Assembly (NCBI GenBank): GCA_041665625.1
Contig: JBAYIK010000002.1
Location: forward strand, 33,126-97,125
Source of the DNA: Minisyncoccota bacterium
GTDB lineage: Bacteria > Patescibacteriota > Minisyncoccia > Phycocordibacterales > XYD1-FULL-46-19
DNA length: 64,000 bases
Reading direction: 5' to 3'
Below are positions 4,573 through 55,286 of the stretch, in pieces. The notes beneath the pieces were generated by a model, which was not told the origin of the DNA, did no database searches, and saw only the letters and a list, made by a program, of their open reading frames with translations. Position 1 is the first letter of the stretch; every line of letters starts with the position of its first letter. A program made the translations under genes and the position numbers.

Positions 4573-4587
4573 AGCAACTAAGATAGG

Positions 4588-8133: not shown

Positions 8134-8191
8134 CACGTTTTAGCCCTCCTCTATAATTATCTGTGTTAGCCTGTCTACATAACCGATAATT

Positions 8192-8437: not shown

Positions 8438-8454
8438 ACAAGTTAGTAATAAAA

Positions 8455-8928
8455 ATGAAAATGAACAAACCACAGAGAACCAACCCTAAGAGCAATGTTG
8501 TAAAACTGGCCTTATGCACGGTGGGGCTCATATGCGAAAGGAGGAAAAACAAGTTGCCGACTCTTGCCTCCCTTCTGATATGCGTCGCACCGAAAAACTT
8601 TCTTTCTGTGGTCCATATCGTCAAACTTTTTATTTCCTCTAAAATCAGAAGGAAAAGTCGGGCTAATGGTAAAAATAAAATTATAATAGGTAGGTTAATT
8701 GTTCATAAACTAGACGGCAATTTTGATACTGAGGATATTGAGCTGTCTTGTTCAGGACCGAAGCAGTCAATAAGCCCAGAGACAATTAGAGAATTCAAGC
8801 AGATTGTGGAGGAAGAATACGGGCTAGTGATAGACAAGACTGACGCCTCTAGAATACTTTGTGGGTTGACCAACTTTTTCGACTTGCTAGCAAAAATAGA
8901 TTATCGAGAAAAAATAAAAGATGGTTGA
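8455..8928 (+). CDS. Hypothetical protein; the real start is probably internal
   Basis: ORF immediately upstream of the recombinase. Confidence 0.35.
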   Translation: MKMNKPQRTNPKSNVVKLALCTVGLICERRKNKLPTLASLLICVAPKNFLSVVHIVKLFISSKIRRKSRANGKNKIIIGRLIVHKLDGNFDTEDIELSCSGPKQSISPETIREFKQIVEEEYGLVIDKTDASRILCGLTNFFDLLAKIDYREKIKDG

Positions 8929-10560: not shown

Positions 10561-10586
10561 GACTCGAACCTACGACCAACCCGTTA

Positions 10587-15137: not shown

Positions 15138-15989
15138 ATGGAAGAAAGCAAAAGTTCCTGGTTAGTGCCCGTTGCAATTATTGTCTGCATCCTGCTTATC
15201 GGCGGTGCTGTTTATTTTAAAGATAAATCTGGGACCACCAGTGGGAATAACGCCAGTTCAACTGGAGCGGCCAGCCAAGCCTTAGATAAAATTCTTACCT
15301 TAGACGATGGTCGCGGTGGAATCTTCGACGTTAATCAATTCGACTTAAGCAAATTACGACCTGTCGATAATACAGATCATATCTTGGGTAATGCCAACGC
15401 TCCGGTTAAAATTATTGCCTACACCGATCTAGAGTGCCCAGCCTGTAAGTATTATCACACCCAACTCAAAGGTCTTGAGGCCAAATATGTCGCTACTGGC
15501 AAATTGGCTATTGTCTACCGTCCTTTCCCGCTTGATCAAATTCACTCCAAAGTTCGCGCTGAATTCTTAGCCGCCGAATGTGTGAATGAACTTGGTGGCA
15601 ATGACAAGTACTGGCAATTCGTAGATAAAATTTTTGAAATTACCCCATCCAATAATGGACTCGATCCAGTCAAACTCGGCGAGACCGCCAAGGCACTAGG
15701 TATCAACATGAAGAGCTTCGACGCCTGCGTTGCCGCCAACAAATACGCTGACAAGATCCAGAAGGGTGAGGACGAGGCCATGGCCCTCCGTGCCCCTGGT
15801 ACCCCAACCACCTTCATCATTGATCCTCAAGGCGGTATCTCCCCCCGTGGTTTTGCTTACCAAAGCGAGGCCCTTTCTGCCGCTGTTGACCTCCTCTTAA
15901 CCCTCCCTGCCACAACCGCTCCCGCCGCTGTTGCTCCTGTTGCCACCACCACTGGTGCTGTCGCCGGGACAAGTACGGCGACCCAGTAA
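15138..15989 (+). CDS. DsbA-like thiol:disulfide oxidoreductase, membrane-anchored
   Basis: N-terminal TM helix, the thioredoxin active site CPACKYYH, and a Thr/Ala/Pro-rich C-terminal tail. Confidence 0.7.
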   Translation: MEESKSSWLVPVAIIVCILLIGGAVYFKDKSGTTSGNNASSTGAASQALDKILTLDDGRGGIFDVNQFDLSKLRPVDNTDHILGNANAPVKIIAYTDLECPACKYYHTQLKGLEAKYVATGKLAIVYRPFPLDQIHSKVRAEFLAAECVNELGGNDKYWQFVDKIFEITPSNNGLDPVKLGETAKALGINMKSFDACVAANKYADKIQKGEDEAMALRAPGTPTTFIIDPQGGISPRGFAYQSEALSAAVDLLLTLPATTAPAAVAPVATTTGAVAGTSTATQ

Positions 15990-16002
15990 AAAACTCAAAT
16001 TA

Positions 16003-16135
16003 ACTCAGCCAAACAACACAGAAAACCCCTCCAGCGAGGGGTTTTCTTACGTTTCGTCATGGCCATTTTGTCATAGTTCTGCGAACAAAGGATGACAAAA
16101 ACCGGCTGGCCATAACTACACGAGGTTGTTTGACT
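16003..16135. repeat. Palindromic MITE-like repeat, copy A. It is diverged and in inverted orientation relative to copies B, C and D.
   Basis: caaacaacacagaaaacc plus the hairpin AAAACCCCTCCAGCGAGGGGTTTT (16022-16045) plus ggccattttgtcat...atgacaaaaaccggctggcc...cgaggttgtttgac. Each segment aligns to the reverse complement of the 187-bp element at 45437 and 48706. It lies directly after the DsbA-like gene stop. Confidence 0.6.
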
Positions 16136-16245
16136 GAATTAATTCTCGCTTAATTAAACGAGACCTCACTTTAACGAACAACAGAAAAGCCCCACACGTC
16201 GTGCGCGCGAGACCTCTCTCACGCACCCCGTGTGGGGCCGCTAAA

Positions 16246-16683: not shown

Positions 16684-16811
16684 GATGGAATTCTCCTTCC
16701 GTTTTGGCGTACTTTTCCATTGTCAGACTCACACGAGCCATAACTTTCTGCCCATTATTATGCACCTATTAAAGCTATTTGTCAATATAAACGTAATGTC
16801 AGCTCCGATAA

Positions 16812-16865
16812 GAAAACCCCTCGCTGGAGGGGTTTTCTGTGTTGTTTTATTGGCTAAGCCGAGCG
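16812..16865. repeat. Palindromic MITE-like repeat, copy B: a partial right end containing a terminator hairpin
   Basis: gaaaacccctcgctggaggggttttctgtgttgttttattggctaagccgagcg matches the right end of the 187-bp element. It lies directly after the rpoD stop. Confidence 0.6.
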
Positions 16866-16867
16866 GT

Positions 16868-18187
16868 CTAATAACCTTGAAGTTTCTTCGCCTTCTCATG
16901 CTGTCTTATCTTCTCATGAGCCTTAGCCTCAATCTGACGAATGCGTTCACGAGTGACACCAAACTCTTTACCCACTTCTTCGAGGGTGCGCATTACCCCA
17001 TCTTTGAGACCATGACGCATCTCCAAAATTCGTTGTTCTTTCATCGTGAGGTCGCTCATGATCTCATCAATCTGATCACGAAGGATACGACGGGAGGTGT
17101 CTTGGTCGGGGGAAGCAATCTTGTCGTCGGCGATGAATTCGCCCAAGGTGCTCTTATCATCATCGTCGTCGGTTGGCTTATCTAAACTTGCAGTGCTCTG
17201 ATCAATCTTCTCAATGGTGTGGATTTTCTCAACCTCAACACCCATCTCGGTAGCAATTTCTTGTGGCAACGGGTCACGACCCAAGTCTTGAGCTAAGCGA
17301 CGATAAACCTGTTTATACTTAGCGATAGTCTCCACCATGTGCACCGGAATACGGATAGTACGTGACTGGTCAGCCAAAGCACGAGTGACAGCCTGACGAA
17401 TCCACCAGGTGGCGTAGGTTGAGAACTTATAACCCTTGCGCCAGTCAAATTTTTCTACGGCCTTGAAGAGGCCGATATTCCCCTCCTGAATTAGATCGAG
17501 TAAGGTTAAGTCTTGACTACGGCCAATATATTTCTTGGCAATCGAGACAACAAGACGAAGGTTGGCATTGGCCAGATCTTTCTTGGCATCATCATCCCCA
17601 GCCAAAATTCTTTTAGCTAAATCCTTTTCTTCATTACCGTTAAGGAGTTTGTGACGGCCAATCTCACGCAAGTACATTTGGACAGAGTCAAGAGAGACAT
17701 CACCTCGTTCATGTTTGATCTTCTCATCCACTTTCATATCTGAATCAAGCAAAGATCCTTCTTCAAGAATATCAATCCCCGACTCTTCAAACTTGGTATA
17801 GAGTTCGTCTAAGAAGATAATATCATTCTCAATATTAGGAAATTCTTTTAGAATCTCTGAGTAAGTTACAAAGTGGCGTTGTTTGCCCTTGCCGATCAAG
17901 TTGTCCATCTTCTGCTTCAGCTTAGACTCCATGGTCTGACCCTCTTTCTTCATGGCGACTACTTCTTTTTTATGGATGACAAAACCCTTACCCGCAGGTT
18001 TCTTGGCTGACTTTTTAGCAACAACTTTCTTCTTTACCACCTTAGCCTTCTTAATAACCTTTTTCACAGCCTTGGCTTTCTTGGTCACCTTTTTCTTGGC
18101 GACCTTCGCCTTCTTAACAACTTTTTTCACAACCTTGGCTTTCTTGACGGCTTTTTTCTTCGCAACGACTTTAGTTTTTTTCTTCAT
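16868..18187 (-). CDS. rpoD: RNA polymerase sigma-70 factor RpoD with an N-terminal lysine/alanine-repeat (histone-H1-like) extension
   Basis: Regions 2-4 are conserved: [33 protein letters not shown] and [14 protein letters not shown]. The N-terminal roughly 60 aa is [10 protein letters not shown]-type repeats. Confidence 0.9.
18001..18187 (-). repeat. Tandem roughly 30-bp coding repeats (K/A/V-rich) at the rpoD 5' end
   Basis: Repeated aagaaagccaaggttgtgaaaaaagttgtt-type units encode [10 protein letters not shown]. Confidence 0.55.
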
Positions 18188-28399: not shown

Positions 28400-29116
28400 T
28401 TATAAACTATTTTTCTTCAGCTTCCACTTATCAATCTCGGCGTGGTGGCCGGAGAGGAGGACCTTAGGGACGCGATATTTCTTTTTGTTGAAAGTAAGAA
28501 CCTCAGGGCGGGTATAAATCTCCGAAATTGAGATGCGTCGCTCCTCGATTGATTCATCTTTACCTAAGACGCCCGGTAAACGACGAGTGATAGCGTCTAC
28601 GACGATCATCGCAGGAACTTCTCCACCGGTCAGTATATACGGACCGACTGATAAGTCATCAGCTTTAAGAATTTTTTTGACCCGAGCGTCGAGGCCCTCA
28701 TAACGTCCGCAGATCAAGACAATATGTTTAGTCATTAATTTGTCAGACCATTCCCCTTTTCTAAAGCCAGCAAGTTTATCGGCGAGAATATTGTCGAAAA
28801 TTTGGCCAGCGGGAGAAAAAATATAAATTTTGGGCTTAGTCTTCGAAGTCTTCGTTTTAGCGAGAGCTTTACTCACGGCCTTAAGCACTGGCTCAGCCAA
28901 CATCACCATACCGGGACCACCTCCGTAAGGACGACCGTCAGTCTTTTTGTAATCTAATCTACCATCCACTTGTTTGCCAATTGTACCAGCGTAGTCACGC
29001 GGATTATAATAAGAAATTTTTATTTTCTTCTCTTTCTGGGCGCGACCAAGAATCGAGGCGTTTAGATACGCCTCGATGGTCTCGGGAAACAAAGTAATAA
29101 TGTGGAAATTTAACAT
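28400..29116 (-). CDS. trmD: tRNA (guanine37-N1)-methyltransferase
   Basis: SPOUT fold with the TrmD-type N-terminus MLNFHIITLFPE. Confidence 0.85.
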   Translation of the reverse strand: MLNFHIITLFPETIEAYLNASILGRAQKEKKIKISYYNPRDYAGTIGKQVDGRLDYKKTDGRPYGGGPGMVMLAEPVLKAVSKALAKTKTSKTKPKIYIFSPAGQIFDNILADKLAGFRKGEWSDKLMTKHIVLICGRYEGLDARVKKILKADDLSVGPYILTGGEVPAMIVVDAITRRLPGVLGKDESIEERRISISEIYTRPEVLTFNKKKYRVPKVLLSGHHAEIDKWKLKKNSL

Positions 29117-32905: not shown

Positions 32906-32917
32906 AATAAAAAGAAA

Positions 32918-32942
32918 GCCGCCCGACGAAGGTCCGGGCGGC
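32918..32942. terminator. Terminator hairpin between convergent rnr and the Sm-like gene
   Basis: GCCGCCCG-acgaaggtc-CGGGCGGC, with a T-tract on the minus side. Confidence 0.45.
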
Positions 32943-32976
32943 ATCTGCGGGTGGAAAGGGTGCGAGAAGGTCGAGG

Positions 32977-33183
32977 CTAGGACGCCTTGTAGCTGTGAGC
33001 GATGACCTCGTTTCTCCCGACCATGAACGTCTCTTTGGAAGTGGTGAGAACGAGCTGTTCGCCATTTTCTTCCAGGGTAAGCCGACCTTCAAATTTGTGG
33101 CCACCATTCAGGTAAACGGTGACCGTCTTGCCATTCATCCTCTCTGCCTGATCCTTGTTCACAAGAGCACTCCTTTTTCTCAA
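32977..33183 (-). CDS. Small Sm-fold, Hfq-like RNA-binding protein
   Basis: 68 aa. VTVYLNGGHKFEGRLTL...LVLT....FMVGRNEVIAHS resembles Hfq Sm1/Sm2. Elevated GC. Confidence 0.4.
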   Translation of the reverse strand: MRKRSALVNKDQAERMNGKTVTVYLNGGHKFEGRLTLEENGEQLVLTTSKETFMVGRNEVIAHSYKAS

Positions 33184-33311
33184 CGTTGATTCTGCGTTTC
33201 GAAAATATCCAGCAATTGGAGATCTTCTCTGGTTTCAGTTAAACACCTTTTACTCCCTTTTACTAGCAAACCCTTTCCTTTGAAGCTCAGTGGCTAAGCG
33301 AGGCCGAGCGC

Positions 33312-36082: not shown

Positions 36083-36772
36083 TTATTTTACTAACCACCC
36101 CTTCACTTCAAGTCCGGCTTGGGCAGCGGATTGCTCGGCTTCTTGTTTAGAGTGACCTTGACCTTCAGCAATTTTTTCTTCACCTAAGAACAGGCCGACG
36201 GTAAATTTCTTGTCATGGTCAGGGCCAGTCTCCGAGAGCACTTTATAAGTCGGAGTAATACTCTCCGCTTCTTGAGCTTTGTGCTGGAAGTGACTCTTAT
36301 AATCCTCAGTCAAATTTTTCTTAATTACTTCATCAGCTTTAGGAAAAACTGTTTGCGCGATGAAATCACGTGCAACATCATAACCACCATCAAGATAGAT
36401 GGCACCGACAAAGGCTTCGAAGGCATTGGCCAAAATAATCTGTCTGGCCCGTCCCGTATCCTTGGCTTCGCCACGGGATAACATTAAGAGATCATTCATA
36501 CCAAGTTCAGTAGCAATGGCACTACAAGTATTAGCGTTGACCAAGGCCGCACGATAGGCGGTCAACTCCCCTTCCGGGCGCTCCGGGTGATTAGCAAAAA
36601 GCCAATCAGTCACTACTAGTTCAAGCACGGCGTCACCAAGAAATTCCAGGCGCTCATTATGAGGCATAGTTATATCCTTGTGCTCGTTCAAATAAGAACG
36701 ATGAAGAAAAGCTTGTTTGAGGAGATCTTTATTTTTAAATTGATAACCGATTTTGTCTTGAAAGTTTTTCAT
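36083..36772 (-). CDS. rnc: Ribonuclease III
   Basis: Signature ERLEFLGDAVLELVV and a C-terminal dsRBD. Confidence 0.9.
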   Translation of the reverse strand: MKNFQDKIGYQFKNKDLLKQAFLHRSYLNEHKDITMPHNERLEFLGDAVLELVVTDWLFANHPERPEGELTAYRAALVNANTCSAIATELGMNDLLMLSRGEAKDTGRARQIILANAFEAFVGAIYLDGGYDVARDFIAQTVFPKADEVIKKNLTEDYKSHFQHKAQEAESITPTYKVLSETGPDHDKKFTVGLFLGEEKIAEGQGHSKQEAEQSAAQAGLEVKGWLVK

Positions 36773-43687: not shown

Positions 43688-45433
43688 ATGGAAAATGATA
43701 TAAACAAAATTCGGCACTCGCTCGCCCACTTATTAGCGATCGCCGTGAAGGCTAAATATCCTGAAGCTAAGTTAGGGATTGGCCCAACAATTGAAAATGG
43801 CTTCTACTACGACTTTGACTTCGGAGCAAGTGTCCCGCCAGAGAACGAGCTCTTAGATCTCGAGAAAGATATGCGCGCGCTTGTCTCTAAGAATATCGAC
43901 TTCGTTCGCTCCGAGATTAGCTCCGACGAAGCAAAAAATATCTTTACTGACGAGCCTTATAAGCTTGAATTAATTGCTGATCTAGAGAAGACTGGCGAAC
44001 AAATTTCTACCTACACATCAGACAGCTTGACCGACCTCTGTGCCGGTCCCCATGTAGCAAGTACGGGAGAGATCGCCCGTGACGCCTTCAAGCTCACTCG
44101 CATTGCTGGCGCCTACTGGCGCGGGGATGAGAAAAACAAAATGCTCACCCGTATCTACGGTGTTGCCTTTGCTAACAAAAAAGATTTGGATGATTACTTA
44201 GAGATGATAGTCGAGGCCGAAAAAAGAGATCATCGCAAACTCGGCAAAGAATTAGAAATTTTTACCTTCGACGATGATGTTGGTGCCGGTCTCCCCTTGT
44301 GGCTTCCTAATGGCACTATTATTATCGATGAACTTGAAAAATTAGCTAAAGAAACTGAGGCTGATGGTGGATATCTTCGCGTTCGCACACCTCATTTAGC
44401 CAAAGAATCCATGTATCTCAAGAGTGGTCATTTGCCTTACTATCAAGACAGCATGTTCCCTCCGATGGAATATGAGGGTATGAAATATTACCTTAAGGCA
44501 ATGAACTGCCCCCACCATCACAAAATTTTTGGTCACAAAACTAGGAGTTACAAAGAATTGCCTGTTCGCCTAGCGGAATATGGGACTTGTTATCGTCACG
44601 AAAAATCCGGCGAGCTCTTCGGCTTAATGCGCGTACGCATGATGCAAATGAACGATGCTCATATCTACTGCTCCAAAGAACAATTTGCTCAAGAATTCAA
44701 AGCGGTGAATGAGATGTACCTCAAGTATTTCAAAATTTTTGGTGTGGACAAATATGTAATGCGTCTCTCAACTCATGATCCTAAAAAATTAGGAGAAAAA
44801 TATGTTAACGAACCAGAGCTCTGGCTTGAGACAGAAAAAATGGTTCGAGACACTCTAATCGAAGCCAAGATTCCTTATGTTGAGGTTCCCAACGAAGCAG
44901 CTTTCTATGGACCAAAGATTGACGTCCAAGTTTGGAGTGCTATTGGCCGAGAATTTACCCTCGCAACAAACCAAGTAGACTTTGCTGTGCCTAAGCGCTT
45001 CGGTCTAACTTATGCTGATGCCGAAGGGAAACAAGAAACTCCGCTCTGTATCCATCGTGCGCCCCTTGGCACTCACGAACGCTTTGTTGGGTTCTTAATC
45101 GAACACTATGCCGGTAACTTCCCTACCTGGCTCGCGCCAACACAAGTGAAAATTATCCCTGTGCTAGAAAATCATAATGATTATGCGCAGAGCGTTTACA
45201 AAGAATTAAGAGCTCTCGATATCCGTGCCAGTATTGATGATAGCGATGAAGGTATGGGCAAAAAAATTCGCGAAGGCAAGGTCAACAAAATCCCCTACAT
45301 GATTGTCATCGGCGACAAAGAAATTGAAGAAAAAATGATTACCGTTGAGAAGCGTGGGGGCGACAAGGGAGAATTGATGCCTCTCGCTGATTTTGCGAAA
45401 AATATTGTTGAGGAAATAAAAGAAAGAAAATAA
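43688..45433 (+). CDS. thrS: Threonine--tRNA ligase (short form lacking the N-terminal TGS domains)
   Basis: Editing-domain HxxxH motif IRHSLAHLLA, class II motifs, and a C-terminal anticodon-binding domain. Confidence 0.9.
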   Translation: MENDINKIRHSLAHLLAIAVKAKYPEAKLGIGPTIENGFYYDFDFGASVPPENELLDLEKDMRALVSKNIDFVRSEISSDEAKNIFTDEPYKLELIADLEKTGEQISTYTSDSLTDLCAGPHVASTGEIARDAFKLTRIAGAYWRGDEKNKMLTRIYGVAFANKKDLDDYLEMIVEAEKRDHRKLGKELEIFTFDDDVGAGLPLWLPNGTIIIDELEKLAKETEADGGYLRVRTPHLAKESMYLKSGHLPYYQDSMFPPMEYEGMKYYLKAMNCPHHHKIFGHKTRSYKELPVRLAEYGTCYRHEKSGELFGLMRVRMMQMNDAHIYCSKEQFAQEFKAVNEMYLKYFKIFGVDKYVMRLSTHDPKKLGEKYVNEPELWLETEKMVRDTLIEAKIPYVEVPNEAAFYGPKIDVQVWSAIGREFTLATNQVDFAVPKRFGLTYADAEGKQETPLCIHRAPLGTHERFVGFLIEHYAGNFPTWLAPTQVKIIPVLENHNDYAQSVYKELRALDIRASIDDSDEGMGKKIREGKVNKIPYMIVIGDKEIEEKMITVEKRGGDKGELMPLADFAKNIVEEIKERK

Positions 45434-45436
45434 TCA

Positions 45437-45622
45437 AGCTCGGCGTCGTTCGGTAAAACAACCTCGCGGAGCTACGGCCAGCTGGTTTTTGCCATTTGGT
45501 CGCAGACCGGCAATATCAAGGTCCGACCTTGATATTGCGATGGCAAAATGGCCGTCGCGGAGAGTAAAAAAACCATTCGCAGGAATGGTTTTCTGTGTTG
45601 TTTTACTGAAGCGACGCCGAGC
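45437..45622. repeat. 186-bp palindromic MITE-like element with terminal inverted repeats, copy C
   Basis: TIR agctcggcgtcgttcggtaaaacaac ... gttgttttactgaagcgacgccgagc, an internal near-palindrome ggccagctggtttttgccat...atggcaaaatggcc, and the hairpin aaaaccattcgcaggaatggtttt. About 95% identical to copy D. It starts 3 nt after the thrS stop. Confidence 0.8.
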
Positions 45623-45766
45623 ACCCCTAGGCGTTATCGAACACCCAGTGTTAGATAATAAGAAATATATGTTGCCCACCCAGACCAATCTTCTAAAAAG
45701 TCCTCGGATCTCCTCGTGTATCTCGGCCAGACATTTTTATAAGCTTGTCTGGGCGGGGGCCATCCC

Positions 45767-45800
45767 AAAAGTGGCAAACACCAGGTGTTTGCCACTTTTT
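45767..45800. terminator. Terminator downstream of the 860-aa surface protein gene
   Basis: AAAAGTGGCAAACACC-agg-TGTTTGCCACTTTTTG. Confidence 0.6.
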
Positions 45801-45802
45801 GT

Positions 45803-48385
45803 TTACATTTTCTCAACCACCTTCCTCGTCACCGCCCCAAAGTACCCCTTGGCTGGCTTAATCTTGTTGGCCGTCTGGAACTTGATGAGAGCTTGTTGGG
45901 TAAGTTTGCCAAAGAGAGTTGTCTCATTGCCTAGAGAACCAAGGCCCTTGGTATCAACAGGATAGCCGTGGGTGTTTAAGAATTGTTGGAGTAGTTTGAC
46001 TTCAGAGTGTTTGGTGCCGAGTTTGAGATCACGGGTGAAGTTTGCTGCGCCCCGTGGGAGCAGAGCGACTTTACGGGCGAGGGTGGAAGTAGCAGAATCT
46101 GGCGTGAGATATTTAGCTTTAAGTTCATTAGCCAGTTTAATATTCCCCATGGCGTTGAGATTAGAGATTTGACTTTGGACGGAGTTGCCAGAGGAATGAG
46201 AGGCGGGGGCTTCAGGAGTAACGACAATATCAGGGACTTTAACTAGTTCAAAAGTATGAGTGGAGTAACCTCCTACGTAAGTGAAAGAGATTTTGCCATC
46301 GTCATCGGACATACATACGCCGTTGGTGCATTGGGAGTTGTCGGTGATGGCGGTGGTGGAGGCTGAGCCATCAAGCTTGAAAGTGTAGTTAACATTAGGG
46401 ACTAAGTCTCCAATGGTGTAGGTGGTGGAGGTGGCAACAGATGATGAGGCTGTCCAACTTTTATTTTGATCACCTGACTTGTCCCAAGTATTAATTACAA
46501 CATCAAGATAATCGGAATAGTTATTGGGGTCATAATCGCCAACTGGAGCAACAGCAAAGTCAGCTGTGACAGAGCTTGAGGTTGCTGAAGTGTAACGATA
46601 TTTGCCACTTTTATAAATCTTGATGTTGCCAGTGTGTTGAACAGGAGTACTGGTGGCGGAGTATTGAGGAGAATAATAAAGGTAGGCGGCAGTTGAAGCC
46701 ATCAAATTTTTACCCGTAGAGTTGGGGTGAACATTTTCTGCTATATCATAATAACCATCGGGCGAAGGAGACTGCCAAAGAGGATTTAGCATCATTTGAT
46801 CTAAATATGAACCACAAACATACCCCCTGATAACACAGTTAGCTTCAACCAGCTCATTTATCTCATGAATTTTTTCATCAGTATATAATTGGTTATTATT
46901 GAATGAGCCGTTACCAATCCAAATCGGAGTCGCACCCCAATCATTGATCTTATCCAAGATAGAAGTAATATAGTTAGCGTATTCCTGAGAAGTAGGGTAA
47001 GTGGAATCATAATCAGGGAATCTATTCACAAAGTCATTCACTCCAATTTCTAGAAAAATTGTATTTGGAGGGGAAACCGAGGACATTAATCCATCAATAG
47101 TGCTAAAAATTCTTACCATTGTTCCACCTGACCAAGCCGCTATAGTAGGATCGGAAGCGGAAATCCCAGTCAAAGTTGTAAAATGACCAGCTGGAGATGA
47201 AGCAGAGGCAGAAATAGAATCCCCCGCAAAAGCAACTTTATTTTGTAAGACAGGATGGGCATTATCGCTAGAACATTTATAGGCTCCGACGTCATTACCA
47301 AACCAAGATTCTCCGTTTATGTCAGTTGCAGGAAGAGCTGAAATTTCGCCATGTCCACAAGCAAGAGATGACGCGCTAAGTCTAAAGTCAAATGTGGAAG
47401 TACTGACAATCAAAGGATCCAAGAAATGATTAGAACCGTCTATACTAAAAACATGGCTAGACGATAATCCCGCGTGAGACTGAAAAAGCGGAAAAGTTGT
47501 ATCATAAGGCGAAGCATGGGGATTATAATAAACATTATTTTTAATAACCCATTTATCTGGATTATTAATTGCATAAAGATAGCCATCAACAGAACTTGAA
47601 AATTGGATAAATCCATAGGCGGGGCCCATATCGGTATAGAAAATATTATTTTTTATACTCACAGAAGAGCTAGCCGCCGAATTAAGAATGGGCTGACTAA
47701 ATGAGGGATAATTCAACGCAACAATTGTCGAATTATGAAGAACTAAATTAGTCTTGACTATCATTCCTACCGCAAATTTAAAACCGTAAATAACACTACT
47801 TTCAATTGTTATATTTGCCTCCGGCTCATTAATATTACCGATCGCATACTGCGAGCCTGAAATATTATGAAGAACAGATCGCCTTATTGTAAGATTTGCT
47901 ACACCATCCCCACTACTTATCGAAATTGCTTTTTCCGCAGTAGTATTCGAATCTATCTCGCAATCTTCAAAAGTTAAAGAGCTTGGAGCATAAAGCCAAA
48001 AATAACCCTTGCCAACAGAATTAGAATTAGTGAATTTTATATGCTTAAAGGTTATATCATTAGAAACATTAGTTTGAAAATTCAAAAAAGTATAATTATT
48101 AGTATTAGTTGGCATATCCATAATAACCGTCGCCCCTTCAGGATATGCCTCAACGGTTACTGTCCCCGTACCAACCGCATTATTAATAACGGGGTTAATT
48201 CTAGTGTTGGATCCATAATAAGTGTTATATGTTCCAGCCTCAACTTTAATAGAATCTCCTTTTGCCACTCGAGAACCAGTCAGAGCATAATTTAATGTTT
48301 TCCAAGCTCCTGCACCCGTGGTTGTGCCATGGCTCGTATCATCAGTACCAGTCGTCGAGATATACCAAGTCGCCGCACTCGCCAA
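45803..48385 (-). CDS. Large secreted cell-wall-targeting enzyme: pectate-lyase-like beta-helix, SGNH/GDSL hydrolase domain and C-terminal PG_binding_1 domain. It is predicted to be phase-variable. The two ATG starts lie at 48455 and 48462 in the other two frames.
   Basis: The in-frame start is only a TTG at 48385, which gives no signal peptide. SGNH blocks FAGDSIS, EIGVNDF and DIAENVHPNSTG are present. The C-terminal PG-binding repeat is LLQQFLNTHGYPVDTKG. Both ATGs upstream of the (CT)7 tract encode the start of a signal peptide. Confidence 0.75.
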   Translation of the reverse strand: MASAATWYISTTGTDDTSHGTTTGAGAWKTLNYALTGSRVAKGDSIKVEAGTYNTYYGSNTRINPVINNAVGTGTVTVEAYPEGATVIMDMPTNTNNYTFLNFQTNVSNDITFKHIKFTNSNSVGKGYFWLYAPSSLTFEDCEIDSNTTAEKAISISSGDGVANLTIRRSVLHNISGSQYAIGNINEPEANITIESSVIYGFKFAVGMIVKTNLVLHNSTIVALNYPSFSQPILNSAASSSVSIKNNIFYTDMGPAYGFIQFSSSVDGYLYAINNPDKWVIKNNVYYNPHASPYDTTFPLFQSHAGLSSSHVFSIDGSNHFLDPLIVSTSTFDFRLSASSLACGHGEISALPATDINGESWFGNDVGAYKCSSDNAHPVLQNKVAFAGDSISASASSPAGHFTTLTGISASDPTIAAWSGGTMVRIFSTIDGLMSSVSPPNTIFLEIGVNDFVNRFPDYDSTYPTSQEYANYITSILDKINDWGATPIWIGNGSFNNNQLYTDEKIHEINELVEANCVIRGYVCGSYLDQMMLNPLWQSPSPDGYYDIAENVHPNSTGKNLMASTAAYLYYSPQYSATSTPVQHTGNIKIYKSGKYRYTSATSSSVTADFAVAPVGDYDPNNYSDYLDVVINTWDKSGDQNKSWTASSSVATSTTYTIGDLVPNVNYTFKLDGSASTTAITDNSQCTNGVCMSDDDGKISFTYVGGYSTHTFELVKVPDIVVTPEAPASHSSGNSVQSQISNLNAMGNIKLANELKAKYLTPDSATSTLARKVALLPRGAANFTRDLKLGTKHSEVKLLQQFLNTHGYPVDTKGLGSLGNETTLFGKLTQQALIKFQTANKIKPAKGYFGAVTRKVVEKM

Positions 48386-48421
48386 GGACGGAAAACTAAA
48401 AAGAATACCCAGGGCGATTAC

Positions 48422-48436
48422 GAGAGAGAGAGAGAG
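48422..48436 (-). repeat. (CT)7C dinucleotide tract, a candidate slipped-strand phase-variation switch
   Basis: The forward strand reads gagagagagagagag. Adding one CT unit puts ATG 48455 in frame, giving MKNPLFTLSLSLVIALGILFSFPSLASA|ATW. Removing one CT unit puts ATG 48462 in frame, giving MKYEKSTFYSLSLVIALGILFSFPSLASA|ATW. Confidence 0.7.
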
Positions 48437-48475
48437 TAAAAAGTGGATTTTTCATATTTCATATAATTACCTTAG

Positions 48476-48553
48476 ATTATAGCAACTTAGGGCAATTAAG
48501 AGAAGTGGGGAAAGCTAAATTAACCAAAAATGTTAAACATCGGATGTTTAACA
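48476..48553 (-). promoter_or_regulatory. Extended -10 promoter (TGcTATAAT) plus an upstream perfect 11-bp inverted repeat, a candidate regulator site for the surface-protein gene
   Basis: Minus strand ...gttgcTATAAT with the -10 at 48481-48476. The palindrome TGTTAAACATC-g-GATGTTTAACA at 48531-48553 lies about 50 nt upstream. Confidence 0.45.
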
Positions 48554-48572
48554 TTTTTGGTGTGTTGTAATT

Positions 48573-48617
48573 AAAAACCCGCCACTTGGAGGTTTAACCT
48601 CCAAGTGGCGGGTTTTT
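48573..48617. terminator. Very strong bidirectional terminator insulating gyrB from the surface-protein locus
   Basis: Perfect 20-bp stem AAAAACCCGCCACTTGGAGGTT-taa-CCTCCAAGTGGCGGGTTTTT. Confidence 0.65.
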
Positions 48618-48705
48618 GCAGCTAAGCGAGGCTTAGTAATTATGAAAAGCTCCCCCTTCGCTCTTGCAGAGCTACGGAGGGACAGGCTCGTGAAGCTAGT
48701 ATCTA

Positions 48706-48892
48706 AGCTCGGCGTCGTTCGGTAAAACAACCTCGCGGAGCTACGGCCAGCATGGTTTTTGCCATTTGGTCGTAGACAGGCAATATCAAGGACTCCCCTT
48801 GATATTGCGATGGCAAAATGGCCGTCGCGGAGAGTAAGAAAACCATTCGCAGGAATGGTTTTCTGTGTTGTTTTACTGAAGCGACGCCGAGC
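48706..48892. repeat. 187-bp palindromic MITE-like element, copy D
   Basis: Near-identical to copy C with the same orientation. It ends 2 nt from the gyrB stop codon. Confidence 0.8.
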
Positions 48893-48894: not shown

Positions 48895-50967
48895 TTATGC
48901 GTCAACATTTGCGAGTTTAGCATGCGTCTGGATAAAGATTTTGCGAGGTTCAACTTCAGAGCCCATCAAGACATCAAAGGTTTTGTCGGCTTCTTCGGCA
49001 TCGCGAATAGTAATTTGCTTCATCACACGGCTAGCTGGGTTCATGGTTGTCTCCCACAATTCCTCTGGGTTCATTTCTCCAAGACCCTTGTAGCGCTGAA
49101 TTGAGATCTTGCTTGTTCTTGATTTAATATTCCCCTCTTCTTCTGAGATTTCAGCATCCACATCTGTTTCATTGTCTGGCTCATCTTCAGTCTCAACCAC
49201 GGCCACTTCTTCTTCGCCACCACTCATTTCTTTAATCAAACGATTTTTCTCTTCATCACTATAAGCATAATTCATATCCTTGCCCTTCTTAATCTTATAG
49301 AGAGGAGGTTGAGCAATATAAATATGTCCGGCATCGATAAGCGGGCGGTAATAACGGAAGAAGAGAGTCAACAAAAGTGTAGAGATGTGCGCGCCGTCCA
49401 CGTCGGCATCGGTCGCGATAATAATTTTATGATAACGTAGGCGCGAGAGATCCATCATATCGCCAATACCCACACCCATAGCAATGATTAGAGATTTAAC
49501 TTCTTTAGATGCAAGCATTTTATCAAGGCGGGCCTTCTCAACATTCAAAATTTTGCCACGCAAAGGAAGAATGGCTTGGGTGCGACGATCACGTCCTTGC
49601 TTACTCGATCCACCGGCCGAGTCTCCCTCTACAATGAAGATTTCGGATTCCTCGGGGCTACGGCTCTGACAATCAGCGAGCTTACCAGGCAAAGTCATGC
49701 CCTCAAGCGCCCCCTTACGAATCACGCTATCCTTGGCCGCCTTAGCCGCCTTCCTCGCTTTAAGAGCTAAGATAGACTTACTAATGATGGCCTTGGCATC
49801 GTCTGGATTCTCTTCGAGATAAATATTCAAAGCCTCGCCGAAGACCGTCTCGACGGCTCCACGAGCCTCTACGCTACCGAGTTTGGCCTTGGTCTGACCT
49901 TCGAATTGGGGGTTGCGCAATTTGACCGAGACGACAGCGGTCATTCCCTCACGGACGTCATCCCCAGTTAAGCTCCCCTCACTTTCTTTAAGAATATTAT
50001 TCTTCTTACCGTAATCATTTAGGATACGAGTTAAAGCAGTACGGAAACCTGTTAGGTGCATACCGCCTTCGGGAGTGATGGTGTTGTTAGTAAAACTTAT
50101 TTCTTTGAAATCAATATCGTCAACGTATTGCAAAGCAACCTCAACCATAATGTCGTTGGCCTCCTTCTCAACATAAAAGATCTCACGATGAAGCGGTTTG
50201 TCGTGACGATTATAATAACGAACAAGGGATAGTAAACCGCCCTCGAAATAGAAAGATTTGTTAGGGGCCTCAAGACCAAGCTCGGACAAGAAAAAGACTT
50301 TGTCGGTGTCTATTTTCTCTTTGACCTCACGAGCATCAATAACTCTAATTCTTAAACCTTTAACCAAGTAGGCCTGACCACGGAGATGGTTGACCATGCG
50401 GTCCCAATCATAGACGGTCTCAGAAAAAATTGTCGGGTCAGGTTGGAAGCTGATTATAGTGCCATGGAGCTTAGAAGAAGAGACTTTCTTAACATTATAT
50501 TTTTTCTTCCCAATGGCAAACTCTTGCATATACTTACCACCGTCACGATGAACCTCTGCCTTAAGCCAAGTGGAGAGAGCGTTTACCACCGAAGCACCCA
50601 CACCATGCAAACCACCAGAAATTTTATAAGAATCGCCCTCGAATTTACCACCAGCATGGAGGACAGTAAGAACAGTCTCAAGCGTAGAGACCTTGGTCTT
50701 CTTGTGCACTTCAACAGGGATACCGGTACCATTATCAACGACACGGATAGCGTTGCCAGGAAGTATGGCCACCTCAATCTCATTACAAAAACCGTTCATC
50801 GCTTCGTCGCGAGAGTTATCAAAAATCTCAACCATCAAGTGATGGAGACCATCAGGACCCGTTGAGCCAATATACATACCAGGACGCTTGCGCACTGGCT
50901 CTAGACCCTCAAGGACGACGATGTCGTCGGCCCCATAGTGACGTGTTTTTGTGTTGTCTTTAGCCAT
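48895..50967 (-). CDS. gyrB: DNA gyrase subunit B
   Basis: YGADDIVVLEGLEPVRKRPGMYIGSTG, ATPase and TOPRIM motifs. The ATG at 50967 is preferred over the TTG at 50982. Confidence 0.9.
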   Translation of the reverse strand: MAKDNTKTRHYGADDIVVLEGLEPVRKRPGMYIGSTGPDGLHHLMVEIFDNSRDEAMNGFCNEIEVAILPGNAIRVVDNGTGIPVEVHKKTKVSTLETVLTVLHAGGKFEGDSYKISGGLHGVGASVVNALSTWLKAEVHRDGGKYMQEFAIGKKKYNVKKVSSSKLHGTIISFQPDPTIFSETVYDWDRMVNHLRGQAYLVKGLRIRVIDAREVKEKIDTDKVFFLSELGLEAPNKSFYFEGGLLSLVRYYNRHDKPLHREIFYVEKEANDIMVEVALQYVDDIDFKEISFTNNTITPEGGMHLTGFRTALTRILNDYGKKNNILKESEGSLTGDDVREGMTAVVSVKLRNPQFEGQTKAKLGSVEARGAVETVFGEALNIYLEENPDDAKAIISKSILALKARKAAKAAKDSVIRKGALEGMTLPGKLADCQSRSPEESEIFIVEGDSAGGSSKQGRDRRTQAILPLRGKILNVEKARLDKMLASKEVKSLIIAMGVGIGDMMDLSRLRYHKIIIATDADVDGAHISTLLLTLFFRYYRPLIDAGHIYIAQPPLYKIKKGKDMNYAYSDEEKNRLIKEMSGGEEEVAVVETEDEPDNETDVDAEISEEEGNIKSRTSKISIQRYKGLGEMNPEELWETTMNPASRVMKQITIRDAEEADKTFDVLMGSEVEPRKIFIQTHAKLANVDA

Positions 50968-51032
50968 AAAAATAAACGCCAAAAGGCTTAATTTACTCCC
51001 CCATTATAGCATATTTGCCGGCCTTCAAACAA

Positions 51033-54739: not shown

Positions 54740-55153
54740 CTAGACCAAATATTCCTTAAGGGTTTTCCGCCATTTTCGCCCCTTGCCCTTGTTTAGATTA
54801 CGGAAATATGGGGTTAAAGAATGGCAATTGGGACACAATAAAATCAAATTAGTCTCAACATTATTGTCGGAATTCCCATCAATATGATCGACTTCTAGCG
54901 GCACTCGACCGGTAATTGGATGTTTTTTGTTCCAGCCACATTTGGCACACTTTTCTTTATATTTATCTAGGAGGTATCTTTTTAGGTGCCCTGAAATATT
55001 TTTTGTTATTGTTCCTTTAACTCCGCCTTCATTACCACTTTTCCATTTTTTTATATAAGAATGATATTGGTAATCATGCTGACACTGATTAGAACAAAAC
55101 TTTATTTTATGCCTTTCAATTAGTTCTTTGGCACAATTTTCACATTTTCTCAT
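54740..55153 (-). CDS. Free-standing HNH endonuclease
   Basis: CENCAK...CSNQCQ plus EVDHIDGNSDNNVETNLILLCPNCH. It lies immediately next to tRNA-Thr. Confidence 0.7.
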   Translation of the reverse strand: MRKCENCAKELIERHKIKFCSNQCQHDYQYHSYIKKWKSGNEGGVKGTITKNISGHLKRYLLDKYKEKCAKCGWNKKHPITGRVPLEVDHIDGNSDNNVETNLILLCPNCHSLTPYFRNLNKGKGRKWRKTLKEYLV

Positions 55154-55213
55154 GTTTTAAGTATACCAAAAGTAACCCTGCTACGGGTATACAAAAAAGA
55201 GGATAATTCTTTG

Positions 55214-55286
55214 AGCCGGTGAGAGGATTCGGACCCCTGGCATCCACTTTACAAAAGTGGCGCTCTACCAACTGAGCTACACCGGC
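55214..55286 (-). tRNA. tRNA-Thr(UGU)
   Basis: The minus strand reads GCCGGTGTAGCTCAGTTGGTAGAGCGCCACTTTTGTAAAGTGG...GGTCCGAATCC...CACCGGC with discriminator U. Confidence 0.85.

What the first reader, a model, noticed from the sequence alone, without database searches (positions are those of the whole stretch)
45437..48892. 187-bp palindromic MITE-like elements in direct orientation bracket the phase-variable surface-protein gene
Copies at 45437-45622 and 48706-48892 are about 95% identical. Each has roughly 26-bp terminal inverted repeats (agctcggcgtcgttcggtaaaacaac with gttgttttactgaagcgacgccgagc) and an internal long imperfect palindrome. Each contains a terminator-like hairpin (aaaaccattcgcaggaatggtttt). 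Each begins within 2-3 nt of a housekeeping stop codon (thrS, gyrB). This is reminiscent of Correia/REP-type elements that donate terminators and promoters. Together they delimit a 3.1-kb cassette, which could be exchanged by homologous recombination between copies.
Basis: seen in the sequence. Interest (0 to 1): 0.65.

Follow-up and report, generated by a model that had tools for sequence, protein, structure and literature searches.

The report
Palindromic terminator repeats bracketing inserted gene
Two near-identical 187-base hairpin-forming repeats flank an inserted surface-protein gene in an uncultured ultra-small (CPR) bacterium; they belong to a previously undescribed, conserved family of terminator-carrying repeats that sit just after the stop codons of housekeeping genes, and the pair was most likely made when the gene inserted into one such repeat.

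Summary
Copies at 45437-45622 and 48706-48892 are 95.7% identical direct repeats with 26-nt inverted termini, a long imperfect palindrome and a terminator hairpin. They lie 3 nt after the thrS stop and 2 nt before the gyrB stop. The repeat is not a local oddity. A covariance model finds 14 full and 2 half copies in the window and nine loci from relatives (Paceibacterota/Vogelbacteria, CPR), and further copies in loci fetched later. In 15 of those 16, the hairpin-side arm abuts a housekeeping stop codon within about 0-6 nt. Pairing is conserved with compensatory changes, and orthologous copies are more conserved than the adjacent genes. I found no target-site duplication, transposase or Rfam match, so it has MITE form without MITE hallmarks. 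At the thrS/gyrB junction, relatives show no element, a plain terminator, one element exactly filling the gap, or one element plus a different small gene. Only the window's strain has element, 3.1 kb, element. The pattern of A/B differences fits a single crossover inside one ancestral element. The cassette is a self-contained, apparently phase-variable surface-protein unit whose homolog sits elsewhere in another genome.

The parts
45436..45622 (+). Copy A of the repeat. L-arm 45437-45462, inner conserved stem, apical hairpin 45510-45538, terminator hairpin H5 45569-45592, R-arm 45597-45622. Its L-arm lies 3 nt after the thrS stop, which is atypical for the family.
   Evidence: (184.5 bits)
48705..48892 (+). 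Copy B of the repeat. L-arm 48706-48731, apical hairpin 48780-48808, H5 48837-48864, R-arm 48867-48892. Its R-arm lies 2 nt before the gyrB stop, the family's standard placement. It is orthologous to the gyrB-side copy in L004 and L014.
   Evidence: (188.9 bits)
43688..45433 (+). thrS (threonyl-tRNA synthetase), the anchor gene on the left.
48895..50982 (-). gyrB, the anchor gene on the right, converging on thrS.
45803..48464 (-). Cassette gene: a secreted or cell-wall-associated protein with a PG_binding_1 domain and a weak GDSL-like hit. The main ORF is 45803-48385. The likely true ATG starts (48455 or 48464) are out of frame with it because of the CT run.
48422..48436 (-). A 15-nt (CT)n run inside the signal-peptide coding region. 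In the present state the ATG frame stops after 19 codons. Adding one CT unit would restore a signal peptide like that of homolog P0002, which has no such run.
45767..45799 (+). The cassette gene's own terminator-like hairpin, immediately after its stop codon.
48573..48617 (.). A perfect 22-bp hairpin with A and T tracts (a bidirectional-terminator type) at the upstream edge of the cassette.
   Evidence: I3
48619..48704 (+). The 'left module' attached to the L-arm of copy B. It begins with a second copy of the junction motif (C)TAAGCGAGG. The stretch 48608-48697 is 97.8% identical to the stretch left of the smc-side copy in L007, and diverged versions occur in L007a and L009. Its function is unknown.
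15987..16151 (-). Copy C1, a diverged full member without the apical hairpin. Its outer arms have a different sequence but are still complementary. Its R-arm abuts the stop of a DsbA-like gene (15138-15989).
   Evidence: (166 bits)
16767..16870 (+). Copy C2, a half copy with only H5 and the R-arm (recognisable from about 16809). Its R-arm abuts the rpoD stop (16868).
   Evidence: (40.6 bits)
33291..33311 (+). A remnant, GGCTAAGCGAGGCCGAGCGCC, next to the stop of the SMC-like gene (33312-35573). It consists of the left and right termini of an element fused at the shared AAGCGAGGCC motif. Three relatives (L003, L005, L007) have a full element at this position.

Best explanation
The two repeats belong to a lineage-restricted family of 160-200-nt structured palindromic intergenic elements in Paceibacterota/Vogelbacteria-type CPR bacteria. 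Each element has five parts: an outer clamp formed by the L-arm pairing with the R-arm (H1), a strongly conserved inner stem (H2-H4), a variable apical segment, and, next to the R-arm, a GC-cored hairpin (H5) followed by TTTTCT on both strands. The standard placement is with the R-arm 0-6 nt after the stop codon of a housekeeping gene. H5 would then terminate that gene about 50 nt downstream and, in the other direction, terminate or insulate whatever is transcribed from the variable DNA on the L-arm side. The long hairpin forms only in L-to-R transcripts or single strands, and it is the strand on which pairing has been kept. Elements are mostly inherited vertically and are under purifying selection. 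They are occasionally lost by deletion between the short AAGCGAGGCC direct repeats at their ends. At thrS/gyrB the ancestral state was one element filling the whole gap between the two converging stop codons. In this strain a self-contained transcription unit for a surface protein with a frame-shifting CT run became inserted by a single crossover inside that element, against a DNA molecule carrying a near-identical copy. This left two complete copies in direct orientation. The same repeats could now delete the cassette by loop-out recombination. Shown: the anatomy, family membership, placement rule, covariation, conservation, presence or absence among genomes, and the polarity of A/B differences. 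Inferred: terminator activity, the RNA-level role of the hairpin, and the crossover mechanism and its enzyme (RecA-type or site-specific).
For: Family and placement. The covariance model finds 14 full and 2 half copies in the window plus L001-L009 and more in L012, L014 and L015. In 15 of those 16 copies the R-arm abuts a stop codon. The anchor genes are gyrB, rpoD, a DsbA-like gene, an RNB-domain (RNase II/R-type) gene, an SMC-like gene, ftsW, rplL, an rpsR-like ORF, efp and rpsJ. Structure. 96% of pair cells are standard pairs. 18 of 52 pairs carry compensatory changes, against 6.3 +/- 1.7 in shuffles (0/500) and 1-8 in slid controls. G-U cells outnumber A-C cells 34 to 8, and all 14 copies fold more stably on the L-to-R strand. 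Terminator. H5 is scored terminator-like and has TTTTCT after its GC core on both strands in all copies. Selection and vertical descent. Copies cluster by locus. Element versus adjacent gene nucleotide identity is 97.7 vs 72.6, 84.9 vs 74.2, 90.4 vs 82.3 and 81.0 vs 70.7%. Junction history. L017 has the two stops 1 nt apart. L016 has a plain 39-nt terminator. L014/L015 have one element filling the 154-nt gap, with the L-arm 5 nt after the thrS stop and the R-arm 2 nt before the gyrB stop. L004 has one element plus a different 575-bp insert. The window's thrS C-terminus (KERK) matches the clade, while L004's (KSRS) is derived. Crossover. A/B identity ends at the element tips. The three left-hand A/B differences have A matching the L004 outgroup, and all right-hand ones have B matching it. 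Cassette autonomy. The cassette has its own terminator-like hairpin. The homolog P0002 lies between infC and smpB without elements. Loss. The fused-termini remnant at 33291-33311 sits where three relatives have the element.
Against: No transcript data exist, so termination and the RNA role are untested. In the L-to-R direction the R-arm lies after the H5 T-tract, so efficient termination would prevent H1 from forming in RNA. H1 covariation might instead reflect DNA-level hairpins or templated correction of quasi-palindromes. The polarity pattern rests on only 5 independent events, or 8 sites if the loop cluster is split, so its chance probability is roughly 0.03-0.13. A and B share 11 derived positions relative to L004, so the incoming copy must have been almost identical to the resident one, or later gene conversion must be invoked. 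A transposition of B that is delimited by the inverted repeats would give the same end state. The 97.7% identity of the rnr-side copies and the 97.8% identity of the left module across genomes that differ by about 25% could indicate recent element-specific exchange rather than constraint. Copy number across whole genomes could not be measured.
Confidence: 0.55

Rival explanations
1. This is a classical MITE: a non-autonomous transposon moved in trans by a transposase encoded elsewhere in the genome. Copy A would be a recent transposition of B next to thrS. The pair could then mobilise the 3.1-kb segment like a composite transposon, as described for MITE pairs flanking integrons.
For: The unit is under 200 bp, has 26-nt inverted termini, has no ORF conserved across copies (inspection of the alignment), and forms a very stable hairpin. 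It is dispersed and multi-copy. Site occupancy differs between related genomes. A/B identity ends exactly at the inverted-repeat tips. C1-like and C2-like copies sit next to different genes in the window and in L002. Half copies and remnants occur, as in ageing MITE families (PMC10969869). MITE pairs flanking integrons are a precedent (PMC10969869, Fig. 3).
Against: No copy-specific target-site duplication flanks any of 14 copies; the only flanking repeat is a motif common to the family. There is no transposase in 64 kb or in the loci examined. The termini are the least conserved part and the interior is the most conserved, which is the reverse of what transposase recognition predicts. Copies cluster by locus and are more conserved than neighbouring genes. 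Only 3-5 exact matches to the conserved-block pattern were found per genome, and few in very large collections. No copy was found on viral contigs. There is no TSD around the A...B unit as a whole.
Confidence: 0.2
2. The element is the recombination site of a dedicated cassette-capture system, analogous to integron attC sites or the attL/attR pair of an integrated island. A site-specific recombinase would recognise the folded single strand or the repeated AAGCGAGG motif and insert or excise gene cassettes at it.
For: Variable genes always lie on the L-arm side. The same 9-10-nt motif occurs at the start of the left module, at the start of the L-arm and within the R-arm, and it is the junction in the fused remnant. 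The structure shows strand-asymmetric conservation, as for attC bottom strands. The A-cassette-B arrangement, with the A/B polarity, is what integration at a site gives. A large serine recombinase is encoded in the window.
Against: There is no recombinase within or beside any cassette. The serine recombinase is 35 kb away, in a separate island next to a group I intron. There are no tandem arrays of cassettes. The AAC/GTT boxes do not fit the attC core consensus RYYYAAC/GTTRRRY on inspection (consensus recalled from memory; sequence). The elements abut housekeeping genes, not cassette genes. In L004 the insert lies outside the element without duplicating it. The cassette homolog in L010 has no element.
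Confidence: 0.1
3. The element is primarily a multi-copy structured non-coding RNA gene, transcribed L-to-R from its own promoter and ending at H5. Its position next to housekeeping stop codons would reflect antisense or 3'-end regulation of those genes. The bracketing of the cassette would then be incidental.
For: There is significant covariation. The G-U bias and greater stability are on the L-to-R strand in 14 of 14 copies. Invariant sequence blocks lie in the inner stem. A terminator sits at the 3' end. Conservation exceeds that of neighbouring coding DNA. A conserved left module lies upstream in four copies.
Against: No promoter-like site is predicted in or before the elements. The upstream sequence is not conserved across most copies. 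H1 needs the R-arm, which lies beyond the terminator T-tract. There is no Rfam match. Half copies keep only H5 and the R-arm, that is, only the terminator part.
Confidence: 0.12
4. This is a chance local duplication or a metagenome mis-assembly at a repeat, with no biological significance.
For: Short-read assemblies do break at this repeat: contig L013 ends 32 nt after the thrS stop.
Against: Two independent assemblies agree over 17.7 kb. The copies differ at 8 positions. The family exists at other loci and in other genomes, with conserved structure.
Confidence: 0.03

Closest known systems
[quoted passage not shown]
   Same: It is a small interspersed repeat whose fold resembles an oversized intrinsic terminator. 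It is strongly enriched close to CDS 3' ends and thought to be co-opted as a terminator. No target-site duplication could be established for it (PMC3049150). The present family shows the same positional logic.
   Different: SPRITE is AT-rich, has only AAAA/TTTT termini and is a single 18-bp duplex. The present element is richer in GC than its genome (about 0.50 vs 0.44). It has 20-26-nt arms clamping an additional conserved ~100-nt stem, a fixed orientation, and 0-6 nt spacing from the stop codon. The sequences and hosts are unrelated.
ERIC / IRU (enterobacterial repetitive intergenic consensus)
   Same: It is a 127-bp imperfect palindrome in transcribed intergenic regions, including gene 3' ends, where it alters mRNA fate (PMC10969869). 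From my own recollection of Wilson and Sharp 2006 (listed as ref. 44 in that review; I did not read it here): size variants arise from internal insertions at fixed points, copies are largely orthologous between related genomes, and sequence conservation is consistent with constraint on RNA structure. The present family shows the same features.
   Different: ERIC has tens to hundreds of copies per genome and contains no dedicated terminator hairpin. It shows no rule of abutting stop codons in one orientation. It occurs in Gammaproteobacteria, and there is no sequence similarity.
Correia repeat-enclosed elements (CREE/NEMIS) of Neisseria
   Same: They are 100-200 bp with 26-nt inverted termini and form long hairpins in transcripts that RNase III cleaves at the TIRs. 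They influence the expression of neighbouring genes (PMC10969869). The window encodes RNase III, and the A/B clamp is a 26-bp duplex.
   Different: Correia elements have TA target duplications (from memory), carry promoters and an IHF site, lie mostly upstream of genes and number over 100 copies. Here there is no TSD, no predicted promoter, a 3'-end location and few copies.
QMITE2 of Coxiella burnetii
   Same: It is about 190 bp with 23-29-nt TIRs and a transcript fold of about -113 kcal/mol. It lies mainly in the 3' untranslated regions of ORFs, and many copies are truncated (PMC10969869).
   Different: QMITE2 has 7-9-bp flanking direct repeats and 78 copies. Neither feature is seen here.
Integron attC sites and cassette arrays
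   Same: They are imperfect palindromes that fold as single strands, lie directly after ORF stop codons and bracket exchangeable gene cassettes. Integration leaves a site on each side (from memory).
   Different: Integrons need IntI, attI and tandem arrays, and attC sites follow the cassette genes. Here there is no integrase nearby, the copies are single and dispersed, the elements follow housekeeping genes, and the core boxes do not fit.
MITE pairs flanking integrons or resistance genes (Acinetobacter; 'integron mobilization units')
   Same: Two near-identical small inverted-repeat elements in direct orientation bracket a few kb of accessory DNA (PMC10969869, Fig. 3).
   Different: Those units carry a TSD around the whole structure (from memory) and are found at different sites. 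Here B is an ancestral resident of the site, and A plus B together occupy the footprint of one ancestral element.

Membership tests
MITE (miniature inverted-repeat transposable element) | Length under 500 bp with no transposase gene inside | tested here: met
   The elements are 159-197 nt. No ORF is conserved across copies; for example, a stop codon falls in winC1 where others are open (inspection of the alignment).
MITE (miniature inverted-repeat transposable element) | Terminal inverted repeats | tested here: met
   A and B have 26-nt arms that are 92% complementary. Helix H1 is present in 13 of 14 full copies. However, the arm sequences vary between copies while the interior is conserved.
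MITE (miniature inverted-repeat transposable element) | Flanking direct repeats (target-site duplications) that differ from copy to copy | tested here: not met
   One search found no flanking duplication of 4 nt or more at consistent boundaries in any of 14 copies. The only repeat is the family-wide AAGCGAGG(CC) motif, which is internal to the consensus. The review notes that DRs fade in old copies, so this weakens rather than excludes the MITE reading.
MITE (miniature inverted-repeat transposable element) | Filled versus clean empty sites at orthologous positions | tested here: inconclusive
   At the smc site the window has fused termini rather than a clean empty site. At the thrS site, flanks are non-homologous in L004. 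At the thrS/gyrB junction, L017 and L016 lack the element but are too diverged to define the boundaries.
MITE (miniature inverted-repeat transposable element) | A cognate autonomous IS or transposase with matching termini | not testable with these tools
   None was found in the 64-kb window or in the fetched loci. Whole genomes could not be scanned.
REP / REPIN with RAYT | 20-40-nt palindromic units, often as inverted doublets, with a RAYT (IS200-like Y1 transposase) gene in the genome | tested here: not met
   The unit is 160-200 nt with a complex multi-helix fold. No Y1-transposase domain appears among the window ORFs. Absence genome-wide was not testable.
Correia element (CREE) | Sequence family of Neisseria with TA duplication, an IHF site and promoter boxes at the ends | tested here: not met
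   There is no TA or other TSD and no promoter-like site in the element. The host is a CPR bacterium. An IHF site was not tested.
Integron attC site | Integron integrase (IntI) and attI nearby, with cassettes in a tandem array, each ending in an attC | tested here: not met
   There is no tyrosine recombinase in the window. The copies are dispersed at junctions of housekeeping genes.
Integron attC site | R''/R' core boxes RYYYAAC ... GTTRRRY at the base of the stem | tested here: not met
   The boxes here are AAACAAC ... GTTGTTT. They share only AAC/GTT, and the palindrome extends about 18 nt beyond them. The consensus is recalled from memory.
Intrinsic (Rho-independent) bidirectional terminator | A GC-rich stem-loop flanked by an A-tract upstream and a T-tract downstream, directly after converging genes | tested here: met
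   H5 is called terminator-like in A and B. All 14 copies read AGAAAA-CCnnTCGCnGGAnnGG-TTTTCT, which gives TTTTCT after the stem on either strand. The hairpin lies about 30 nt from the abutting stop codon. Activity itself was not testable.
Structured RNA family in Rfam | A match to a curated covariance model | tested here: not met
   There was no hit at gathering thresholds in the window or loci. The only hit on the element was a chance-level one, E = 6.2.
Diversity-generating retroelement TR/VR pair | Adenine-specific differences between two repeats, and a reverse transcriptase nearby | tested here: not met
   A/B differences are not adenine-specific. There is no RT among the window ORFs.

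The most novel reading that the evidence does not exclude
The elements are not only terminators. They may also be portable landing pads of a cassette-exchange system peculiar to these streamlined CPR genomes. In this reading, a conserved folded strand plus the repeated AAGCGAGG junction motif lets self-contained accessory transcription units, such as phase-variable surface proteins, be inserted into and excised from the terminators of essential genes. The exchange would use either RecA or a recombinase not yet recognised. The near-identity (about 98%) of some elements and modules between genomes that differ by about 25% would then reflect horizontal movement of the pads with their cargo.
Probability: 0.2. 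Interest if true: 0.75.

Novelty: new member of a known kind. Interest (0 to 1): 0.45.

Why it matters
Small palindromic repeats such as REP, ERIC, Correia, BOX/RUP/SPRITE and QMITE are well known in cultured bacteria. I found no description of such a family in CPR/Patescibacteria, either in Rfam or in the searchable literature. In these organisms, whose genomes are compact enough that converging genes can end 1 nt apart, a repeat that persists at fixed sites, evolves more slowly than gyrB or ftsW and keeps a 50-pair fold is very likely functional. It gives a concrete handle on how transcription units are insulated in such genomes. It also marks the few places where accessory genes come and go. 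The thrS/gyrB series (no element, plain terminator, one element, element plus small gene, element-cassette-element) is an unusually clean natural record of how a variable surface-protein gene was acquired. The covariance model built here could be used to map flexible gene slots in related MAGs. It could also flag the repeat as a cause of contig breaks, as seen in L013.

Tried and rejected
(1) Rfam, at gathering thresholds on the window and 10 loci and in e-value mode on the element, found no family. (2) The genome-collection and metagenome pattern scans gave only 6 and 3 loci. (3) The viral-contig scan found no copies. (4) An exact-protein lookup of the window's ThrS and of P0001 was not on record, so the rest of the 134.7-kb source contig could not be fetched. 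(5) The target-site duplication search was negative. (6) The promoter scan found nothing inside the elements or the left module. My manual attempt to read TTGCAG ... TAGTAAT in the left module as a promoter fails on spacing (12-16 nt). (7) A small-peptide reading of the element or left module was rejected, because the reading frames are not conserved across copies. (8) A DGR template/variable-repeat reading was rejected, because the differences are not adenine-specific and there is no RT. (9) A gene remnant in copy A's right flank, which would have shown that the incoming copy came from another gene's 3' end, was not found: there is no open frame. (10) The hit in L010 near the cassette homolog turned out to be an ordinary extended-palindrome terminator, not a family member. 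(11) Literature searches for CPR MITEs or palindromic repeats returned nothing relevant.

Full report
OBSERVATION. The two copies are real. Positions 45437-45622 and 48706-48892 align end to end at 95.7% identity (BLAST E 1e-83), in direct orientation, with one indel and seven substitutions. Each has the quoted 26-nt inverted termini (92% complementary), a central palindrome (arms 45510-45538 and 48780-48808) and the hairpin aaaaccattcgcaggaatggtttt, which the scan calls terminator-like. The unit folds far better than shuffled sequence on both strands (z = -9.9 and -11.3). thrS (43688-45433, +) ends 3 nt before copy A. gyrB (48895-50982, -) ends 2 nt after copy B. Identity between A and B stops exactly at the tips of the inverted repeats. 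An independent assembly of the same strain (L012, one mismatch in 17,746 nt) shows the same arrangement.

ORGANISM. The window's ThrS is identical to a protein labelled Candidatus Paceibacterota MAG. The nearest genomes are a Candidatus Vogelbacteria MAG (CAIPHT01: L001, L002, L004-L006) and a MAG labelled Saccharibacteria (CAZXCI01: L003, L014). The second is in fact syntenic with the window at about 80% amino-acid identity. The genome is compact, with many gene gaps of 0-60 nt.

A FAMILY, NOT A LOCAL DUPLICATION. BLAST within the window found two diverged relatives near 16 kb. One genome-collection scan and one metagenome scan, using patterns made from conserved blocks, gave nine loci. A covariance model (R1) then found 14 full and 2 half copies in the window plus L001-L009, and later copies in L012, L014 and L015. 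No copy was found on viral contigs, and no Rfam family matches. Only 3-5 exact matches to the conserved-block patterns were found per genome, so the family is small and lineage-restricted.

ANATOMY. The alignment and the consensus fold show five helices. H1 is the outer clamp of L-arm with R-arm. H2-H4 form an inner stem with invariant blocks (GGCCAGC, TTTTGCCAT/ATGGCAAAA, TGGCC). An apical segment varies between copies: a 30-nt hairpin is present only in winA, winB and L004, and a different insertion in L003. H5 is a GC-cored hairpin next to the R-arm, reading AGAAAA-stem-TTTTCT, so a T-tract follows the stem on either strand. The consensus termini are (GCAG)YT-AAGCGAGGCC... on the left and ...GAAGCGAGGCC-GAGCGCC on the right. 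A 9-10-nt direct repeat therefore flanks the palindrome. Four copies, including B, carry an extra 'left module' that begins with a third copy of that motif. The window's version (48608-48697) is 97.8% identical to one in L007, at a different locus in a genome whose genes differ by roughly 25%.

PLACEMENT RULE. In 14 of 16 copies the R-arm abuts the stop codon of a gene of at least 90 aa that converges on it. A fifteenth (L002a) abuts a short rpsR-like ORF. The anchor genes are gyrB, rpoD, a DsbA-like gene, an RNB-domain RNase, an SMC-like gene, ftsW (twice), rplL, the rpsR-like ORF, efp and rpsJ. The L-arm side carries DNA that differs between genomes: mostly small ORFs without Pfam hits, a glycosyltransferase in L001, and the 860-aa protein here. 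Copy A is the only copy whose L-arm abuts a stop codon.

EVIDENCE OF FUNCTION. On the 14 full copies, 96% of pair cells are standard pairs. Eighteen of 52 pairs show compensatory double changes, against 6.3 +/- 1.7 in shuffles (0 of 500 reach 18) and 1-8 when partners are slid by 1-3 columns. G-U cells outnumber A-C cells 34 to 8, or 24 to 8 without one dominant pair. All 14 copies are more stable as the L-to-R strand. Pairing has therefore been kept on the strand antisense to the abutting housekeeping gene. Copies cluster by locus rather than by genome (gyrB 90%, rnr 98%, smc 84-89%). In four of five ortholog pairs the element is more conserved than the adjacent gene: 97.7 vs 72.6, 84.9 vs 74.2, 90.4 vs 82.3 and 81.0 vs 70.7%. 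This points to long residence at fixed sites under purifying selection, unlike a currently active selfish transposon. There is one caveat. Templated correction of quasi-palindromes could also create 'compensatory' changes in H1. In A and B the L-arm has become an exact complement of the R-arm right to its tip, unlike in L004.

MITE TESTS. Size, inverted termini and the lack of a conserved ORF are met. No copy has its own flanking duplication. No transposase, RAYT or tyrosine recombinase is encoded in the window. The only recombinase is a large serine recombinase at 8974-10560, in a separate island beside a group I intron. The termini are the least conserved part. Some turnover does occur. The window lacks the rnr-side and smc-side copies present in relatives. 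The C1/C2-like pair sits between the DsbA-like gene and rpoD in the window, but between the rpsR-like ORF and efp in L002. At the smc site the window retains GGCTAAGCGAGGCCGAGCGCC, the two termini fused at the shared motif, where L003, L005 and L007 have the full element. That is what deletion between short direct repeats flanking a long palindrome would leave.

HISTORY OF THE thrS/gyrB JUNCTION. ThrS homologs led to more genomes. In L017 (ThrS 83% identical) the two stop codons are 1 nt apart. In L016 (80%) a plain 39-nt bidirectional terminator separates them. In L014/L015 (81%) one diverged element (66 bits) fills the 154-nt gap exactly, with its L-arm 5 nt after the thrS stop and its R-arm 2 nt before the gyrB stop. 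In L004 (95%) the layout is thrS, then 575 bp carrying its own terminator and an unrelated 111-aa ORF, then one element, then gyrB. L004's thrS C-terminus (KSRS) is the odd one out against KERK, KERI and KARK elsewhere, so L004's state is derived. The window has A, 3.1 kb, B. Together A and B thus occupy the footprint of one ancestral element. That explains why A alone breaks the placement rule.

A single crossover between a resident element and a near-identical copy on an incoming circular or looped DNA predicts that A equals resident-left plus incoming-right, and B equals incoming-left plus resident-right. With L004 as outgroup, the three left-hand A/B differences have A in the outgroup state. 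The right-hand ones (a 4-nt loop cluster and one A/G) have B in the outgroup state. This is the predicted pattern, but with 5-8 informative sites the chance probability is about 0.03-0.13. A and B also share 11 derived sites, so the incoming copy was very similar to the resident, or conversion followed. A transposition of B delimited by the inverted repeats cannot be excluded.

THE CASSETTE. The 860-aa ORF has a PG_binding_1 domain and a weak GDSL-like hit. It has its own terminator-like hairpin and, by inspection only, a TATAAT-type box upstream. The likely ATG starts are out of frame because of a 15-nt CT run (48422-48436). One extra CT unit would restore a signal peptide like that of the 64%-identical homolog P0002, which has no such run. 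P0002 lies between infC-rpmI-rplT and smpB, without elements. The cassette is therefore an independent unit found at different places in different genomes.

MECHANISM, MOST LIKELY. H5 terminates the abutting housekeeping gene and, in the other direction, transcription from the variable side. The long hairpin, which only L-to-R transcripts contain, may block exonucleases, be cut by RNase III (encoded at 36083-36772; compare Correia elements) or insulate. The 187-nt direct repeats now allow RecA-type loop-out of the cassette. All activity statements are inferences from sequence.

COMPARISON AND NOVELTY. The closest analogues are SPRITE (a terminator-like repeat close to CDS 3' ends with no TSD established), ERIC (a conserved imperfect palindrome at 3' ends), QMITE2 (about 190 bp, in 3' UTRs) and Correia (26-nt TIRs, cleaved by RNase III). 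The element is not a member of any of these and fails the TSD criterion for MITEs. It is a new family of a known general kind. Its distinctive features are strict orientation and spacing relative to stop codons, an interior more conserved than the termini, modular joins at a shared motif, and a documented insertion of a gene within an element. Interest is moderate.

Noticed in passing
window 48422-48464: A 15-nt CT dinucleotide run lies in the signal-peptide region of the cassette gene. The ATG frame (48455 or 48464) stops after about 19 codons, and one more CT unit would put it in frame with the 860-aa ORF. Homolog P0002 has an intact signal peptide and no run. This is consistent with slipped-strand phase variation, currently 'off'. 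The same-strain assembly L012 has the same run length.
   Followed up: partly
window 8974-11103 (and 1261-8928): A large serine recombinase (8974-10560, +) is followed by a group I intron (10594-10819, -, 78.7 bits) with an HNH endonuclease ORF (10783-11103, -). Upstream lies a run of ORFs that mostly lack Pfam hits, apart from SHOCT/DUF4429, a PLD-like nuclease and an unannotated 821-aa ORF. This looks like a separate integrated island. The host gene of the intron was not identified.
   Followed up: no
window 48608-48697; L007 5391-5480: The 90-nt 'left module' is 97.8% identical between two genomes whose adjacent genes are about 72-82% identical, and it sits at different loci (gyrB side in the window, smc side in L007). 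Diverged versions occur in L007a and L009. In L007 a fragment of another element copy precedes it. Its function is unknown, and the high identity is unexplained: either recent exchange or strong constraint.
   Followed up: partly
L005 2884-3054 vs L007 4478-4648: The rnr-side element is 97.7% identical between two genomes whose rnr genes are 72.6% identical. The high identity is confined to the element plus about 17 nt on its L-arm side.
   Followed up: partly
window 45680-45758; L002 3262-3343; L010 8665-8745: There is a second hairpin-type repeat (CCCGCCCAGAC ... GTCTGGGCGGG arms) just past the cassette gene's terminator. It is 88% identical over 83 nt to the recA-efp intergenic region of L002. 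An analogous long hairpin follows the cassette homolog in L010. This may be another small repeat family.
   Followed up: no
window 45640-45652 and 45777-45789; L003 apical insertion; L010 ~8748-8770: The small palindrome AACACC-N-GGTGTT occurs twice in the window (expected 0.01), both times in the cassette's 3' flank. It recurs inside the apical insertion of the L003 element and after the cassette homolog in L010.
   Followed up: no
window 32977-33183 (-): A 68-aa GC-rich ORF in the rnr/smc slot has weak LSM/Sm-like and RimP-SH3 hits (E about 2e-3) and its own terminator hairpin at 32915-32945. It might be a small Hfq-like protein or it might be spurious.
   Followed up: no
L002 1671-1727 and 2022-2078: Two 57-nt direct repeats (96% identical) each combine a terminator-like hairpin with a TAGAAT -10-like box. 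They lie inside the variable slot between the two elements and precede GC-rich stretches without convincing ORFs or Rfam hits. These may be unannotated small RNA genes.
   Followed up: no
L017 1780-1795: In this relative the thrS and gyrB stop codons are separated by a single nucleotide, with no terminator structure at all. It is a striking example of compaction at a convergent junction.
   Followed up: no
window 28985-29081: ARAGORN calls a 97-nt tRNA-Lys(ttt) inside the trmD ORF (28400-29116). Rfam does not report it. It is probably a false positive.
   Followed up: no
L003 / L014 (CAZXCI010000001.1): This record is titled 'uncultured Candidatus Saccharibacteria', but it is syntenic with the window and the Vogelbacteria MAG at about 80% amino-acid identity over many genes. 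The label appears to be wrong or very loose.
   Followed up: partly
window 54740-55153; L014 13366-13773: A free-standing HNH endonuclease ORF lies next to tRNA-Thr (55213-55286) and is conserved in position in L014.
   Followed up: no
L013 (Logan SRR6484324 contig), end of contig: This short-read contig of the same strain ends 32 nt after the thrS stop, inside copy A. The repeat breaks assemblies.
   Followed up: no
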